A stretch of 64,000 bases of DNA, from contig CAVVLV010000001.1 of NCBI GenBank assembly GCA_963749235.1, positions 1,083,039 to 1,147,038 of the forward strand, read 5' to 3'. The notes under the pieces are model-generated. The model ran no database searches. It saw only the letters and a program-made list of their open reading frames with translations, and had not been told where the DNA came from. The translations under genes were made by a program, and so were the position numbers. This DNA is from an uncultured Thermoplasmata archaeon (lineage in GTDB: Archaea > Thermoplasmatota > Thermoplasmata > Lutacidiplasmatales > UBA184). Below, in pieces: positions 47,914 to 50,729 of the stretch. Position 1 is the stretch's first letter. Each line of letters starts with the position of its first letter.

Positions 47914-48549
47914 TTACGGGAGGGTTGACGGGCTGGTAGTGCCCGAGTACGAGCCCTGGCCGATCCCGACAAACGTGTTCCCAGCGCCCGCCCAGGGGTT
48001 TGCCCCGGCGGCGGAGCCAGTGTCGATCACGATCGTGTAGAGGGTCGTGAGCGGCGTGGACGACGTGGTCGCGGTGTCGGTAGGGTACGTAAGGCTGGTC
48101 ACAGCCCAGCCGGCCGTCACGAGTCCGCACGCGGCAACGAGGCCCGCGGTGTTGACGACGTAGAAGCCGCCCGCGGCGCCCGGGAGAACCGAGCCGCCGG
48201 GGCCCTTGACTTCAAGTCCTACGCTCGCGAAGGTCACGGTCGAGGATTCGACCGTCAGCGTGTAGGTCCAGTCGGCCGTCTTGATCGCGGCTGCAGCCGT
48301 GGTCGTTCCCGCCGCGCAGGCGGAGGCGACGCCGCTGCCCACGTTGTTGGCAGCGATTCCGTTGCCCGCGGCAAAGGCACTGCCAATCGGGGCGTTGCCC
48401 GGTCCGTGGGTCAGTCCCGAGATCAGCACGTACAGAACGGCTGCGAGGACCACCGTGATCGCGACCAGCAAAATGGTCGCAATAATCGGCGATACCGCTC
48501 GCTTCCGCGCCTTTCTCCAGCTCCGCTTGTTTGTTTCCCAGACGTTCAT
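47914..48549 (-). CDS. archaeal type IV pilin-like protein (class III signal peptide), 211 aa
   Basis: The ATG at 48549 inside ORF 47914..48696 gives MNVWETNKRSWRKARKRA followed by VSPIIATILLVAITVVLAAVLYVLI. GGAGGA lies 8 nt upstream (complement of 48558-48563). Confidence 0.8.
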   Translation of the reverse strand: MNVWETNKRSWRKARKRAVSPIIATILLVAITVVLAAVLYVLISGLTHGPGNAPIGSAFAAGNGIAANNVGSGVASACAAGTTTAAAAIKTADWTYTLTVESSTVTFASVGLEVKGPGGSVLPGAAGGFYVVNTAGLVAACGLVTAGWAVTSLTYPTDTATTSSTPLTTLYTIVIDTGSAAGANPWAGAGNTFVGIGQGSYSGTTSPSTLP

Positions 48550-48570
48550 TCGCTTTGTCCTCCGAGGGTC

Positions 48571-48590
48571 CGAAGACCCGCGAAGACCCC
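48571..48590. repeat. tandem 10-mer CGAAGACCCG / CGAAGACCCC
   Basis: Read directly from the sequence. It lies in the 5' leader region of the 48549 pilin gene. Confidence 0.8.
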
Positions 48591-48668
48591 TACTGGAAAC
48601 AGGTAGTATTTGAATCAAGAGGGCACCCGATTCGACAATAGACGCATTATACATCGACAAATGACGCC

Positions 48669-48686
48669 ATGCGCATCTATGCGCAT
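48669..48686. promoter_or_regulatory. two adjacent copies of the palindromic octamer ATGCGCAT (ATGCGCAT-ct-ATGCGCAT)
   Basis: Read directly from the sequence. Each octamer is its own reverse complement. They sit about 120 nt upstream of the pilin start and about 320 nt upstream of the RHH gene. This is a candidate operator; function is unproven. Confidence 0.4.
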
Positions 48687-48970
48687 AACAACACATCGTG
48701 CCACGTCAGAGCACGACACCGGCCCAAATCGGCATATCGTGGACCGGGAGGCGCCCGGGGGCCGAAAACGAGCCCATTTCCGGCCCCTCCCCTCATTCGC
48801 AGCCGAAGCGACGAGTCCGAACCGATCGCCCGGCTGGCCCCGGATTGGAGGTTATACACGGGTCGCCTCGGATCACGCTCGTGTTCGACAGCATCCCACG
48901 TACGTTCGACACCTCAGAAGAGCAGGCGTACGGCACTCGGAGAAAAATCAGACGGACCGGGTTACGATTG

Positions 48971-48978
48971 TTTAAGTA
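48971..48978 (+). promoter_or_regulatory. TATA-like box (TTTAAGTA), 28 nt upstream of the RHH GTG at 49007
   Basis: Lies in the AT-rich gattgTTTAAGTAagag. The spacing fits a leaderless RHH / FtsZ-like transcript. Confidence 0.45.
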
Positions 48979-49006
48979 AGAGAAGTATGCTTGGCCCTTA
49001 CTGGCT

Positions 49007-49507
49007 GTGTTCGACAACGCTCCGGACCGGGAACCTGCACGCCCTCGTGGCGCTGCTCCTTCTCGGGAAGCGACCGAGGATGCGCGCATTGCGCTACGGT
49101 GCAACCGCAAGGAGCTCCAGCTGGTCGACTCGTTCGTGACGAACGGCGAGTACCCGACCCGCTCGGAGCTCATGAGGGCAGCGCTGCACGCGTTCCTCCG
49201 CGCCCGTACCTTGTCGACCGCGCCGACGCCTGCCGTGGACGCCGAGGGCTTCATCGAGGTCCCCGTGCGTCTTCGGCCCGAGGAATACGCCGCATTCGAG
49301 ACCTACAGCCGCCATATCGCCAACGGGCGCCCGGTCCGGGACATCCTGGCCGAGATCGTCCGCCGCGGCGAATTGGAGCTGAAGGTCCAGGAGCTCGTCC
49401 AACGGGCTCGTGCAACGGTGCGCGATGCGGTGGAGACCCGGGCCCGGGTCGGAGCGCTCCAAGAGAGCGGCAAGGACCTGGAGCGGCGGGGCGTCGTCGG
49501 TCGGTAG
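49007..49507 (+). CDS. ribbon-helix-helix (CopG/Arc/MetJ-type) DNA-binding protein, possibly tandem RHH plus a C-terminal coiled coil
   Basis: ORF 49007..49507 contains RIALRCNRKELQLVDSFVTNGEYPTRSELMRAALHAFL, a classic RHH pattern. A second RHH-like unit follows (IEVPVRLRPEEYAAFETYSRHIANGRPVRDILAEIVRRG), then a helical tail. Confidence 0.75.
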   Translation: MFDNAPDREPARPRGAAPSREATEDARIALRCNRKELQLVDSFVTNGEYPTRSELMRAALHAFLRARTLSTAPTPAVDAEGFIEVPVRLRPEEYAAFETYSRHIANGRPVRDILAEIVRRGELELKVQELVQRARATVRDAVETRARVGALQESGKDLERRGVVGR

Positions 49508-49543: not shown

Positions 49544-50536
49544 GTGGCGATCTACAAGGATGGGGAAGGAGCGAACGAACGAATTTCCGGACCGGACACC
49601 GGCGTGCTGGAGGAGGCGTGGGCCCACCAGCTCCGCCTCGGCCAAGACGTTCGGTTCGTCCTCGCCGCCGTCGGCGGCGGGGGGATACGGATCGCTCGGG
49701 AGATCGCGGCCCGCCACATCCGTCACTTGGAGACCGTCGCGATCAACTGTGACCCCAAGGTGCAATCGTTCGACGAGTTCGACCGTCGGGTCTACTTAGG
49801 CCCGGACTCGGGCGCGGATCGCGACACGGGGGGTTCCCCCTTCGTGGGGGGGCTACTCGCCCGAGCCGCGGAGCCGGCGCTCGACCGAATCTTCGAGGGA
49901 GCTACGTTCGTCATCGTGGTCGGGAGCCTGGGCGGGGGCGCGGGGAGTGGGGCTCTCCCGTACTTGCTCGAGGTCGCCAGCCGGCATGCCGAAGTCGTGA
50001 GCGCGTTCGTCGTGCGACCCTTCCGATGCGAAGGGGACCGGCGCGCTCTCGCGGACCGGGCGATCGGTCGCCTGCACTTTGTGGAGGCGTTCGTGGAGAA
50101 GCGGGAGCGTGGCCTGGCCTCGCTCCGCACGCTGGACAACGAGTCGCTCGTGCCCTCCCAGGGAAATCTCGCGTTTGGCCAGGTGGCCCGTCACTGGGCC
50201 GACCTGATCCAAGATCACATCGAGACCGCCTTCCTCGCCCCGACGGAAGCCCTCCTCGACGCCGCGTCTCTCGCCCATATCGCTCGCTTGACCCCCATGA
50301 ACCAGTTCGCCGAGGCTGAGCTGCCTCCGGTCGGACTTGGACTCCCGCCGATCGCTCCGCCCCTTTCGCCGGAGTACCCCCTCTCCTACCCGCCGCGAGC
50401 TTGCAGGGAGGCGGCGAAGTGGAGCTCACGTTCGAGATCGTCCCGGAAGCGCGCCCGCCCGAGGCCCACTAGACCCCGAGGAAGGGGGGCCCCTCCCGAC
50501 CCCCCTGCCTCCTCCCCTCCTCCTCTAGCCTTATGA
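49544..50536 (+). CDS. divergent FtsZ/tubulin-superfamily GTPase-like protein lacking the canonical C-terminal domain
   Basis: ORF 49544..50536 aligns by eye to the FtsZ GTPase domain: VLAAVGGGGIRIAREI (G1), AINCD, the tubulin signature variant GSLGGGAGSGALPYL, VVRPFRCEGDRR (compare TRPFxFEGxxR) and TLDNESL (compare NDxL). The fold ends at about residue 260, followed by a Pro-rich linker. Confidence 0.65.
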   Translation: MAIYKDGEGANERISGPDTGVLEEAWAHQLRLGQDVRFVLAAVGGGGIRIAREIAARHIRHLETVAINCDPKVQSFDEFDRRVYLGPDSGADRDTGGSPFVGGLLARAAEPALDRIFEGATFVIVVGSLGGGAGSGALPYLLEVASRHAEVVSAFVVRPFRCEGDRRALADRAIGRLHFVEAFVEKRERGLASLRTLDNESLVPSQGNLAFGQVARHWADLIQDHIETAFLAPTEALLDAASLAHIARLTPMNQFAEAELPPVGLGLPPIAPPLSPEYPLSYPPRACREAAKWSSRSRSSRKRARPRPTRPRGRGAPPDPPASSPPPLAL

Positions 50537-50561: not shown

Positions 50562-50729
50562 ATGGACGGCCGCACCCTCACAGTCCTGTTCCTCCTCGTG
50601 CTCCCCGCCGTTCTGATCGGGGTGACGATATGGGTCTTTGCCTCGAACCCCCTTTCGATCTTTGTGCTGCTCGCGGCGATGGTCGCTGGCGGGTTCTATC
50701 TGTTGACCTACAACTCGTCCTTCACCTGA
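50562..50729 (+). CDS. 55-aa two-TM membrane protein
   Basis: Not in the ORF track (under 60 aa): MDGRTLTVLFLLVLPAVLIGVTIWVFASNPLSIFVLLAAMVAGGFYLLTYNSSFT. It has high third-position GC, GAGGAG lies 20 nt upstream of the ATG, and it directly follows the FtsZ-like gene. Confidence 0.5.
   Translation: MDGRTLTVLFLLVLPAVLIGVTIWVFASNPLSIFVLLAAMVAGGFYLLTYNSSFT

What the first reader, a model, noticed from the sequence alone, without database searches (positions are those of the whole stretch)
48550..49006. Long AT-richer intergenic region packed with three kinds of short repeats
TTCGACA occurs four times in one orientation: 48631, 48884, 48905 and 49010, the last inside the RHH start region. There is also one degenerate copy at 48653. 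GTGTTCGACA is repeated exactly at 48881 and 49007. Two self-complementary octamers, ATGCGCAT-ct-ATGCGCAT, sit at 48669-48686, and a tandem 10-mer, CGAAGACCC(G/C), sits at 48571-48590. Four same-strand copies of a 7-mer within about 400 bp are very unlikely by chance. The region separates a pilin gene from the RHH / FtsZ-like operon. It could hold a centromere-like site, operators, or both.
Basis: seen in the sequence. Interest (0 to 1): 0.6.

Follow-up and report, generated by a model that had tools for sequence, protein, structure and literature searches.

The report
Conserved operators in divergent archaeal promoter
The repeat-rich gap between a pilin gene and a small regulator/FtsZ-like operon is a two-way promoter region whose short repeats are conserved protein-binding sites, most likely letting a cell-division-type regulator control its own operon; it is not a DNA-partition centromere.

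Summary
The host is an uncultured soil/peat Thermoplasmata archaeon (1.8 Mb, 67% GC).

- **RHH-side repeats.** Three TTCGACA copies (48884, 48905, 49010) are conserved footprints. In 27 of 27 protein-anchored same-genus genomes, and in 102 species found by pattern, the RHH promoter keeps one architecture:
  - GTTATAC, then about 25 nt, then GTTCGAC (box 1).
  - 21 bp on, TGTTCGACACGTCAG (box 2).
  - 66-67 nt on, TATA (TTTAAGTA).
  - 36 nt on, GTGTTCGACAA (box 3, at the start codon).
- **Non-conserved copies.** The TTCGACA at 48631, the degenerate copy at 48653 and the second 10-mer are not conserved as such.
- **What the RHH is.** It is CdrS-like and sits upstream of a divergent FtsZ. The genome also has a canonical RHH-ftsZ pair. 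That pair's promoter, and the promoters of another ftsZ and of smc, carry the related box GTCWGACAA. I read the TGTTCGACA boxes as the private operator of this paralogous regulator (inferred, about 0.6).
- **Octamer pair.** ATGCGCAT-ct-ATGCGCAT belongs to a second motif that recurs at four loci genome-wide, upstream of secreted-protein genes.
- **Centromere reading.** The evidence does not support it.

This is a new member of a known kind and of moderate interest.

The parts
47914..48549 (-). Type IV pilin gene with a class III signal peptide, transcribed away from the gap.
   Evidence: Pfam Pilin_N, E = 3.6e-6. NCBIfam arch_flag_Nterm, E = 2.2e-13. Peat metatranscriptome contigs cover its 5' end at the highest depth of the stretch.
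48559..48590 (-). Pilin 5' leader. It holds the Shine-Dalgarno complement CCTCC (48559-48563) and the hairpin GGGTC-CGAA-GACCC (48566-48579).
   Evidence: The hairpin arms are kept and the loop varies in most of the 28 aligned relatives. The second 10-mer copy occurs only in the closest four or five species. The fold is -17.6 kcal/mol with z = -1.4, which is not significant alone. RNA contigs reach 48572.
48607..48614 (-). Probable pilin TATA box. The + strand reads TATTTGAA, so the minus strand reads TTCAAATA.
   Evidence: Conserved as GTATTTGAA / GTATTTAAA in 28 species. The position fits a leader of about 35-40 nt. The transcription start is not mapped.
48632..48666 (+). Two 13-mers, TCGACAATAGACG (48632) and TCGACAAATGACG (48654).
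   Evidence: One search finds both. In 28 relatives only CGR...ACG and TCG...GACG(T) are kept, so TTCGACA itself is not conserved here.
48669..48686 (.). Octamer pair ATGCGCAT-ct-ATGCGCAT, a copy of a genome-wide motif ATRCRCAY-NN-ATRCRCAY with a 10-bp period.
   Evidence: Kept as ATACRCAC-NN-ATGCGCAT in 28 of 96 species with enough upstream sequence. There are four exact loci in this genome against about 0.01 expected and 0 in a reversed-genome control. The other copies precede a thermopsin-family gene and a 1028-aa secreted protein.
48702..48711 (+). CACGTCAGAG, the conserved end of the pilin-side block.
   Evidence: CGCACGTCAG is kept in most of the 28 species. It resembles the right half of box 2.
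48712..48850 (.). Non-conserved spacer of variable length with a G+C-rich hairpin.
   Evidence: It cannot be aligned even with the closest relative. The octamer-to-GTTATAC distance ranges from 56 to 369 nt. Fold z-scores are -1.5 to -2.0.
48851..48857 (+). It may be a second, upstream TATA box or a regulator site.
   Evidence: Present in 27 of 27 protein-anchored genus genomes and in genus g16. Elsewhere in this genome GTTATAC sits 29-38 nt upstream of ATG codons, like a TATA box.
48881..48890 (+). Box 1, GTGTTCGACA (core GTTCGAC, 48883-48889).
   Evidence: GTTYGAC is present in 21 of 27 genus genomes and lies 21 bp before box 2 in 20 of 27. It is present in 68 of 103 pattern hits.
48904..48919 (+). 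Box 2, GTTCGACACCTCAGAA. The consensus is TGTTCGAC-AC-GTCAGAAA, an imperfect inverted repeat.
   Evidence: Present in 27 of 27 genus genomes. Flanking columns not required by the search pattern are 84-100% identical in 102 species, against 26-50% in the spacers.
48971..48978 (+). TATA box TTTAAGTA of the RHH / FtsZ-like operon.
   Evidence: Conserved. It lies 36 nt before the GTG in 97 of 102 species and 66-67 nt after box 2 in 100 of 102.
49007..49017 (+). Box 3, GTGTTCGACAA, overlapping the GTG start codon (codons M-F-D-N).
   Evidence: Invariant in all 18 genus genomes. Present in 102 of 103 pattern hits although it was not part of the pattern. F2 and D3 are invariant while residues 4-23 vary. 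An RNA contig begins at 49012.
49007..49507 (+). CdrS-like ribbon-helix-helix protein of 166 aa: an N-terminal RHH, a possible second RHH-like unit and a long C-terminal helix.
   Evidence: NCBIfam CdrS model, E = 1.4e-6, below its cut-off. Pfam RHH_1, E = 0.021. AlphaFold2 pLDDT 80.7. Foldseek gives only non-significant RHH hits.
49544..50536 (+). Divergent FtsZ-family GTPase, co-transcribed with the RHH. Its tail appears frameshifted, with the likely true stop at 50470-50472.
   Evidence: Pfam Tubulin, E = 5.2e-14, with no FtsZ_C domain. All PDB sequence hits are FtsZ. An RNA contig spans 49453-49581. The +1 frame reads EVELTFEIV..., as in relatives.

Best explanation
The gap is a divergent promoter region made of two independent regulatory modules.

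**Module A (48851-49017) drives the RHH / FtsZ-like operon.**
- A TATA box at 48971 would place transcription start near 49000. The mRNA would then be leaderless or nearly so, from the GTG at 49007.
- Three copies of a 9-bp box, TGTTCGACA, lie at about -113, -92 and +8 relative to that start.
- I propose that these boxes are the operator of the adjacent CdrS-like RHH protein.
- The protein would bind the high-affinity, partly palindromic box 2 and the auxiliary box 1 two helical turns away. It would contact box 3 ten helical turns downstream, probably by looping. That would set the level of its own operon and of the FtsZ-like gene behind it.
- The box is a diverged version of GTCWGACAA. That box marks the canonical RHH-ftsZ operon, a second ftsZ and smc in the same genome. 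So this operon looks like a duplicated cell-division circuit with its own private operator.

**Module B (48550-48711) is the pilin promoter.**
- It holds a TATA box, a leader hairpin and a dense upstream block.
- The block contains the ATGCGCAT octamer pair, which is an operator of a different regulon of secreted-protein genes.

**Shown:** motif positions, conservation, spacing, genome-wide distribution, gene families, and co-transcription of the RHH with the FtsZ-like gene.

**Inferred:** which protein binds which box, the sign of regulation, looping, and the transcription starts.
For: **1. Conservation and phasing.**
- GTTATAC, box 2, the TATA box and box 3 are present in 27 of 27 protein-anchored genus genomes.
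- A three-part pattern finds 103 stretches among 185,579 species genomes. From pattern degeneracy I estimate about 1-2 chance hits. All but three titles read Thermoplasmata or Thermoplasmatales, and three read 'bacterium'. 102 of the 103 also carry GTGTTCGAC after the TATA box, although that was not part of the pattern.
- Box 2 to the TATA box is 66-67 nt in 100 of 102 species. Box 2 to box 3 is 105-106 nt in 96 of 102. The spacer sequences themselves are only 26-50% identical.

**2. The constraint is on DNA, not on a peptide.**
- Boxes 1 and 2 lie in no conserved reading frame.
- In genus g15 the boxes sit at different distances from the conserved coding sequence in the two genomes examined, L034 and L035, and fall in different reading frames.

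**3. The link to the RHH family.**
- The RHH matches the CdrS model.
- The paralogous, class-wide RHH-ftsZ operon has the invariant sites GTCAGACAA-N11-TTGTCTGAC and ATGGTCGACACGTC between its TATA box and its ATG in 18 genomes.
- g15 orthologues of the window's RHH use TGTCCGACA and TGTCTGACA.

**4. A regulon for the related box.**
- Four of the five GTCWGACAA sites in the genome lie in the promoters of the canonical RHH-ftsZ operon, of smc and of a canonical ftsZ.
- The exact 13-mer GTCTGACAAACAG is kept upstream of the ftsZ orthologue in four relatives. A reversed-pattern control finds nothing (one search read against the coordinates).

**5. The TGTTCGACA composite is unique to this locus**, as expected of a private operator.

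**6. Precedent.**
- CdrL binds only the cdrS-ftsZ2 promoter (PMC7439475).
- CdrS motifs lie 41-110 nt upstream of transcription starts (PMC8406309).

**7. RNA.** Metatranscriptome contigs cover the RHH from 49012 and cross into the FtsZ-like gene. None lie between 48616 and 49011.
Against: - No binding data exist, so the assignment of the boxes to this RHH rests on adjacency and analogy.
- The canonical paralogue or an unrelated factor could read the boxes instead.
- The RHH assignment is itself sub-threshold: NCBIfam 28 bits against a cut-off of 100, and Pfam E = 0.021. The AlphaFold2 monomer model shows the expected strand as a helix. Foldseek hits are not significant.
- In this window box 2 departs from the consensus: ACG before the box instead of TTG, and CCTCAG instead of CGTCAG.
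- The invariant GTTATAC is unexplained. If it is a second TATA box, boxes 1 and 2 would be transcribed and could act at the RNA level.
- The transcription starts are predicted, not mapped. The RNA evidence comes from assembled contigs of related strains, which show presence but not absence. One low-depth contig runs past the pilin TATA box.
Confidence: 0.6

Rival explanations
1. The boxes are read by another regulator and not by the local RHH. The obvious candidate is the canonical CdrS-like paralogue at C1:226.7-227.2 kb. In that case the operon is one more member of the cell-division regulon that already includes ftsZ and smc.
For: The box differs from the regulon box GTCWGACAA at only two central positions, and g15 orthologues use the regulon form itself. 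In Halobacterium a second RHH, CdrL, controls cdrS-ftsZ2 (PMC7439475).
Against: All three boxes carry the same TC variant in about 100 species, while ftsZ, smc and the canonical operon in the same genomes keep CW. That points to a distinct reader. The variant composite occurs nowhere else in the genome.
Confidence: 0.18
2. The boxes form a centromere-like site. The RHH would be an adaptor that couples this DNA to filaments of the FtsZ-like GTPase, as TubR/tubC do for TubZ or ParR/parC for ParM. This would be a chromosomal segregation module.
For: The gene order is repeats, then a DNA-binding protein, then a tubulin-family GTPase. The RHH has a long C-terminal helix that could hold a partner. 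A related box lies upstream of smc.
Against: There are only three boxes, dispersed over 21 and 105 bp and interleaved with a TATA box and a start codon, not a tandem array. All solved-structure sequence hits are FtsZ, and Pfam Tubulin_2 reaches only E = 0.025. The locus is single-copy, chromosomal and syntenic with pilin and PAC2 genes across the genus. The same architecture exists for the canonical RHH-ftsZ pair, which is a known transcriptional module.
Confidence: 0.08
3. Boxes 1 and 2 act in RNA. GTTATAC would be a second TATA box that starts a long leader at about 48881, and the conserved sequences would belong to a regulatory leader or a short upstream reading frame.
For: GTTATAC lies 30 nt before box 1, and it sits 29-38 nt before ATG codons elsewhere in the genome. 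64 of 102 species have a start-capable codon just before box 2, and 60 of 102 have an open frame of 24-25 codons from there.
Against: The peptide is not conserved beyond FDTSE, and 38 of 102 species lack a start codon. Rfam finds nothing. The spacers show no conserved pairing by eye. No RNA contig covers 48616-49011. In genus g15 the boxes move relative to the coding sequence.
Confidence: 0.09
4. The repeats are chance or compositional products of an AT-richer gap and have no function.
For: The bare 7-mer is not enriched genome-wide. Clusters of some 7-mer occurring at least four times within 400 bp occur in about 380 one-kb bins. The 48631 copy, the 48653 copy and the second 10-mer are indeed not conserved.
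Against: The three other boxes, GTTATAC and their spacing are invariant in 27 protein-anchored genomes and 102 pattern hits, while the sequence between them is scrambled.
Confidence: 0.02

Closest known systems
cdrS-ftsZ2 (and cdrL) locus of Halobacterium salinarum and Haloferax volcanii
   Same: A ribbon-helix-helix regulator gene lies immediately upstream of, and is co-transcribed with, an FtsZ-family gene. The regulator family binds short, partly symmetric motifs 41-110 nt upstream of transcription starts, and CdrL binds only the promoter of its own neighbourhood (PMC7439475, PMC8406309). The window's RHH matches the CdrS model. Boxes 1 and 2 lie at about -113 and -92.
   Different: The regulator here has 166 aa, not about 60, with an extra domain and a long helix. 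The partner is a divergent FtsZ-like protein without a detectable FtsZ_C domain. It is a second, family-specific copy beside a canonical RHH-ftsZ pair. The operator sequence is its own variant. No function has been tested.
aCcr1 and the aCcr1-box of Sulfolobales
   Same: [quoted passage not shown] Box 3 here, and the sites of the canonical paralogue, occupy that position.
   Different: The box sequence is different and the target is a different division machinery (ESCRT/CdvA). aCcr1 is not encoded next to its target. Here two further boxes lie upstream of the TATA box.
Bacterial RHH autorepressors (Arc, Mnt, CopG, MetJ, omega)
   Same: Short repeated sites at the regulator's own promoter are bound cooperatively by RHH dimers on one face of the helix. 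MetJ and omega use tandem 7-8-bp units (established knowledge). The octamer pair, with its 10-bp period, has this look.
   Different: These are archaeal TATA-type promoters. The boxes are spread over 21 and 105 bp and are not adjacent.
TubZRC and ParMRC partition cassettes
   Same: The order is upstream repeats, then a small DNA-binding protein, then a cytomotive-filament NTPase of the tubulin or actin superfamily. In those systems the centromere also serves as the operator.
   Different: Those centromeres are arrays of 7-10 tandem repeats on plasmids or phages, and TubR is a winged-helix protein. Here there are three dispersed boxes on a chromosome, and the GTPase matches FtsZ and not TubZ.

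Membership tests
CdrS-type RHH / ftsZ cell-division regulatory locus | The regulator has a ribbon-helix-helix DNA-binding domain of the CdrS family. | tested here: inconclusive
   NCBIfam NF058555 gives E = 1.4e-6 at 28 bits, against a cut-off of 100. Pfam RHH_1 gives E = 0.021. Foldseek top hits are RHH domains at E >= 1.5. This is the best CdrS-model hit in the genome.
CdrS-type RHH / ftsZ cell-division regulatory locus | The regulator gene lies directly upstream of an FtsZ-family gene and is co-transcribed with it. | tested here: met
   The gap is 36 nt. The partner matches Pfam Tubulin at E = 5.2e-14. An RNA contig spans 49453-49581. The pairing is kept in the genus and in genus g15.
CdrS-type RHH / ftsZ cell-division regulatory locus | The partner is FtsZ2, and the regulator is a small protein of about 60 aa with a single domain. 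| tested here: not met
   The regulator has 166 aa. The partner lacks an FtsZ_C match and is only about 26-35% identical to other FtsZ homologues. A separate, class-wide RHH-ftsZ pair exists at C1:226-227 kb.
CdrS-type RHH / ftsZ cell-division regulatory locus | The regulator binds a specific DNA motif and controls division genes. | not testable with these tools
   Only indirect evidence: related boxes lie at the ftsZ, smc and canonical RHH promoters.
Autoregulatory operator of an RHH regulator | Repeated short sites lie in the regulator's own promoter and are conserved together with the gene. | tested here: met
   Boxes 1-3 are conserved in 27 of 27 (boxes 2 and 3) and 21 of 27 (box 1) genus genomes. 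Box variants accompany the orthologues in genera g15 to g17.
Autoregulatory operator of an RHH regulator | The sites are bound by the locally encoded protein. | not testable with these tools
   This needs a gel-shift, footprinting or DAP-seq experiment.
Partition centromere (tubC / parC type) | An array of many tandem direct repeats lies next to the adaptor gene. | tested here: not met
   There are three boxes at 48883, 48904 and 49009, separated by 21 and 105 bp, with a TATA box in between. The bare 7-mer occurs at no other place in this region beyond the four listed copies, and the box composite is unique in the genome.
Partition centromere (tubC / parC type) | The NTPase belongs to the TubZ (or ParM) family and the cassette sits on a mobile replicon. 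| tested here: not met
   All 49 solved-structure sequence hits are FtsZ. The locus lies on a 1.48-Mb contig and keeps pilin and PAC2 neighbours across the genus.
Archaeal TATA-type promoter | A TATA-like octamer lies about 25-30 nt upstream of the transcription start. | tested here: inconclusive
   TTTAAGTA lies 36 nt before the GTG and is conserved. TTCAAATA lies on the pilin side. RNA contig ends at 49012 and 48572 are compatible. No start-site data exist.
Known non-coding RNA families (Rfam) | A match to a curated covariance model. | tested here: not met
   Only two chance-level hits (E = 1 and 4.6), both outside the gap.

The most novel reading that the evidence does not exclude
The RHH, its three phased boxes, the truncated FtsZ-like GTPase and the 55-aa membrane protein together form a chromosomal, tubulin-based DNA-positioning or segregation device. 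The RHH's long C-terminal helix would tether the box-bearing DNA to FtsZ-like filaments. The related box upstream of smc would tie the system to chromosome organisation. This would be a TubZRC-like mechanism domesticated on an archaeal chromosome.
Probability: 0.07. Interest if true: 0.85.

Novelty: new member of a known kind. Interest (0 to 1): 0.45.

Why it matters
Control of cell division in archaea by RHH regulators is known from only a few cultured species. Here, in an uncultured soil and peat Thermoplasmata lineage, comparative sequence alone yields three things:

- A candidate division regulon marked by one box, covering two ftsZ genes, smc and the canonical regulator.
- A duplicated regulator/FtsZ-like pair whose operator has diverged from the regulon box at two central positions, apparently together with its regulator.
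- A promoter whose site spacing has stayed fixed in about 100 species, at 2 and 10 helical turns, while the sequence between the sites has been scrambled.

This is a ready-made case for studying how duplicated regulatory circuits become insulated. It also offers defined DNA probes for testing proteins from organisms that cannot be grown. The practical value is annotation: these motifs can flag division and surface-protein promoters in this lineage.

Tried and rejected
- **Known RNA family.** Rfam at a permissive threshold gave only chance hits outside the gap.
- **Small gene or upstream reading frame at box 1 or box 2.** The start codon is inconsistent and the peptide is not conserved. The common length of 24-25 codons is set only by stop codons inside the TATA box.
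- **Peptide-level constraint on box 3.** Rejected because in genus g15 the boxes shift in position and reading frame relative to the coding sequence.
- **Global regulon for TTCGACA / GTTCGACA.** Other copies lie in G+C-rich, apparently coding sequence. Only this locus has the motif clustered in a low-G+C context.
- **Tandem 10-mer as a functional repeat.** Only the first copy, as a hairpin arm, is widely conserved.
- **GTTATAC as a regulon motif.** There are 19 copies against about 50 expected from composition, and their contexts look like ordinary TATA boxes.
- **Replication origin.** I saw no nearby Orc1/Cdc6-like gene in the ORF list of 44-54 kb (I did not search for one specifically). There are no inverted origin-box pairs, and the repeats are direct and promoter-embedded.
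- **Structural classification of the RHH.** Foldseek hits were not significant.
- **Direct evidence for transcription starts.** Only assembled contigs of related strains are available.
- **The Haloferax CdrS motif.** It could not be read from the text or the supplements, so I made no direct motif comparison.
Full report
**Setting.** The window is C1:1083039-1147038 of a 1.81-Mb, two-contig, 67% G+C archaeal genome. Record titles of relatives that carry the same element name them as Thermoplasmata MAGs, and the sequencing runs that hold the stretch are soil and peat metagenomes. The gap at 48550-49006 (457 bp, 57% G+C) lies between two transcription units.
- On the minus strand is a type IV pilin gene, 47914-48549.
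- On the plus strand is an operon of a 166-aa ribbon-helix-helix (RHH) protein (49007-49507), a divergent FtsZ-family GTPase (49544-50536) and a 55-aa membrane protein.

**The observation.**
- TTCGACA is not enriched in the genome: 235 copies on both strands.
- The local cluster of four same-strand copies has Poisson P = 2.6e-8 and ranks 15th of 353 merged cluster regions.
- Order-3 Markov genomes produce about 0.5 clusters that strong per genome, against 15 in the real genome.
- So the cluster is unusual, but it would not be convincing without comparative data.

**Comparative footprinting on the RHH side.** I used the FtsZ-like and RHH proteins as anchors and fetched the orthologous loci of 27 genomes of the same genus, plus three further genera of the family.
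- Five of the loci were delivered on the wrong strand and had to be turned.
- The gap is unalignable except for sharp islands:
  - GTTATAC at 48851: 27 of 27 genomes.
  - GTTCGAC, box 1, at 48883: 21 of 27.
  - TGTTCGACACGTCAG, box 2, at 48903: 27 of 27.
  - The TATA box TTTAAGTA at 48971.
  - GTGTTCGACAA, box 3, at 49007, overlapping the GTG start: invariant in all 18 genomes and present in 27 of 27.
- A three-part pattern (GTTATAC ... TTYGACAC ... TTTAAGTA) scanned over one genome for each of 185,579 species returned 103 stretches. From the pattern's degeneracy I estimate about 1-2 chance hits.
- All but three of the record titles shown read Thermoplasmata or Thermoplasmatales, and three read 'bacterium'. 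102 of the 103 also carry GTGTTCGAC within 60 nt after the TATA box, although that was not in the pattern. The exception, L100, is labelled 'bacterium' and looks like the expected chance hit.
- Spacing is rigid while the spacers are scrambled at 26-50% identity:
  - Box 1 to box 2: 21 bp.
  - Box 2 to the TATA box: 66-67 nt in 100 of 102 species.
  - The TATA box to the GTG: 36 nt in 97 of 102.
  - Box 2 to box 3: 105-106 bp in 96 of 102, which is ten helical turns.
- The exact 10-mer identity of 48881 and 49007 is an accident of this genome, because the base triplet before box 1 varies.

**DNA or peptide?**
- Box 3 encodes M-F-D. F2 and D3 are invariant while residues 4-23 vary freely.
- Boxes 1 and 2 lie in no conserved reading frame. 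38 of 102 species lack a start codon before box 2, and the downstream peptide is unrelated between species.
- In genus g15 the orthologous operon is an RHH of 151 aa followed by an FtsZ-like protein of 316 aa. It carries two boxes, TGTCCGACA and TGTCTGACA, 22-27 bp apart.
- In the two g15 genomes the boxes sit at different distances from the conserved coding sequence and fall in different reading frames.
- Selection therefore acts on the nucleic acid.

**What the RHH is.**
- Its N-terminal domain (residues 27-64) matches NCBI's CdrS model at E = 1.4e-6, below the cut-off. It matches Pfam RHH_1 weakly.
- The AlphaFold2 model has pLDDT 80.7. It shows the helices of one RHH, a second strand/helix/helix-like unit and a 50-residue C-terminal helix.
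- Foldseek gives only non-significant RHH hits.
- CdrS is the RHH regulator encoded upstream of, and co-transcribed with, ftsZ2 in haloarchaea. The pairing is widespread in archaea. CdrL binds only that promoter. CdrS motifs lie 41-110 nt upstream of transcription starts (PMC7439475, PMC8406309).

**A paralogous circuit with a related operator.**
- The same genome has a second RHH, about 120-140 aa with two CdrS-model hits in one frame, directly upstream of another FtsZ homologue at C1:226-227 kb.
- That pair is conserved across the class: homologues score E around 1e-20 in other families, and where I compared coordinates they lie next to an FtsZ homologue. It is therefore the canonical module.
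- The pair in the window is restricted to one family.
- In 18 genomes the canonical promoter keeps GTCAGACAA-N11-TTGTCTGAC and ATGGTCGACACGTC, at the start codon, between its TATA box and its ATG.
- These are the same 9-mer as TGTTCGACA apart from the two central bases. The g15 orthologues of the window's RHH still use the canonical form.
- Genome-wide, GTCWGACAA occurs five times. Two copies are in the canonical RHH promoter. One is about 60 nt upstream of smc (SMC_N, E = 1.2e-31). One is about 25 nt upstream of a canonical ftsZ on contig 2, which has Tubulin and FtsZ_C domains.
- The exact 13-mer GTCTGACAAACAG is kept upstream of that ftsZ's orthologue in four relatives. A reversed-pattern control finds nothing (one search read against the coordinates).
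- The TGTTCGACA composite occurs only at this locus.

**Mechanism proposed.**
- The box family is the operator family of CdrS-like RHH proteins in this lineage.
- The canonical protein controls itself, two ftsZ genes and smc.
- After duplication, the window's RHH and its operator diverged (CW to TC at the centre) and formed a private autoregulatory loop for the FtsZ-like operon.
- The consensus of box 2, TGTTCGAC-AC-GTCAGAAA, is an imperfect inverted repeat and would be the primary site. Box 1 lies two turns upstream. Box 3 lies ten turns downstream at the transcription and translation start, where an occupied site would block initiation.
- The fixed phasing suggests a looped complex.
- All of this is inference.

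**GTTATAC.** This is the most conserved element and it remains unexplained.
- Elsewhere in the genome it lies 29-38 nt upstream of ATG codons, like a TATA box.
- Here it lies 30 nt before box 1, so it may be a second promoter. It could equally be a site for another factor.
- The paper on aCcr1 describes a 9-bp box ending in TAC and says it resembles the core of the CdrS motif. I note the loose likeness only as a lead.

**The pilin side.** In 28 species that share this pilin neighbour, the stretch 48550-48711 is a dense conserved block. It contains, in order:
- The Shine-Dalgarno sequence.
- A leader hairpin, GGGTC-N4-GACCC, with a variable loop.
- The TATA box, GTATTTGAA on the plus strand.
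- Then TGACGTAAT, ATACRCAC-NN-ATGCGCAT, AATGACACA and CGCACGTCAG.

Four points follow from this block.
In the fold that copy pairs with the Shine-Dalgarno region, but the z-score is only -1.4.
- The 48631 and 48653 copies of (T)TCGACA are not conserved as such.
- The octamer pair is a separate motif. ATRCRCAY-NN-ATRCRCAY occurs at four loci in the genome, against about 0.01 expected and none in a reversed-genome control. A triple copy lies next to a GTTATAC at C1:860902.
- The other copies lie 34-81 nt upstream of a thermopsin-family gene and a 1028-aa secreted protein. A one-mismatch copy precedes an 82-aa protein that looks RHH-like by eye but has no Pfam match. I read the pair as an operator of a surface or secreted-protein regulon, with an unknown reader.

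**RNA evidence.**
- Peat metatranscriptome contigs from related strains cover the pilin gene up to 48572. One low-depth contig reaches 48615 and beyond.
- They cover the RHH from 49012 and cross the RHH / FtsZ-like junction.
- None lie between 48616 and 49011.
- This fits two outward-facing promoters and a largely silent gap. Contigs cannot show absence or exact ends.

**Rivals.**
- A centromere reading is not supported. There are three dispersed boxes, the GTPase is FtsZ-like and not TubZ-like, the locus is chromosomal and syntenic, and the same layout occurs in the canonical transcriptional module.
- The evidence does not exclude that the canonical paralogue reads the boxes. The uniform TC variant argues against it.
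- An RNA-level role for boxes 1 and 2 depends on GTTATAC being an active promoter.
- Chance is excluded for the conserved elements.

**Verdict.** The element is a new, well-defined member of the known class of RHH-controlled archaeal division-gene promoters. Its notable features are a diverged private operator and fixed helical phasing.

Noticed in passing
window 50380-50536: The tail of the FtsZ-like reading frame looks frameshifted. The +1 frame reads ...GGGEVELTFEIVPEARPPEAH and stops at 50470-50472, which matches the C-terminus of relatives (...EVELTFEIVQPAPPPEAR). The true protein probably has about 309 aa. This is either a real mutation or an assembly indel.
   Followed up: partly
own genome C1:226746-227174 (minus strand) and downstream to about 225701: A second, class-wide RHH-ftsZ pair. 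[quoted passage not shown]
   Followed up: yes
own genome C1:462431-462443 (minus strand) and C2:31157-31169 (minus strand): The identical 13-mer GTCTGACAAACAG lies about 60 nt upstream of smc and about 25 nt upstream of a canonical ftsZ. Together with the canonical RHH promoter this suggests a cell-division and chromosome regulon. The ftsZ copy is kept in four relatives.
   Followed up: partly
own genome C1:401252, C1:742753, C1:803410, C1:860902, C1:621857: The octamer pair ATRCRCAY-NN-ATRCRCAY recurs upstream of a thermopsin-family gene, a 1028-aa secreted protein and an 82-aa possible RHH protein. At C1:860902 three octamers directly follow a GTTATAC. At C1:401252 a TTCGACGTCA box lies about 20 nt upstream of the pair, much like the arrangement in the window.
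   Followed up: partly
window 50562-50729: A 55-aa single-pass membrane protein follows the FtsZ-like gene on the same strand, and a similarly placed sequence appears in relatives. It could be a membrane anchor for the FtsZ-like protein.
   Followed up: no
L033 (genus g17), upstream of the RHH gene: In this genus the RHH promoter carries GTATAAC, the reverse complement of GTTATAC, directly followed by ATGCGCAT-GG-AACCGCAT. Two TGTTCGACAA boxes lie 24 bp apart at and after the start codon. The same elements are reshuffled.
   Followed up: no
own genome C1:969785 and C1:1447871: Two similar sequences, TGTCGACAAGGAGACTGTCAC and TGTCCGACAAGGACACTGTCGC, lie in low-G+C contexts. They may be further members of the box family or an unrelated repeat.
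   Followed up: no
loci L005, L009, L010, L013, L018 and other minus-strand matches of the genome search: Loci from the genome search are not turned when the match is on the minus strand. The first alignment therefore mixed upstream and downstream flanks until I corrected it.
   Followed up: yes
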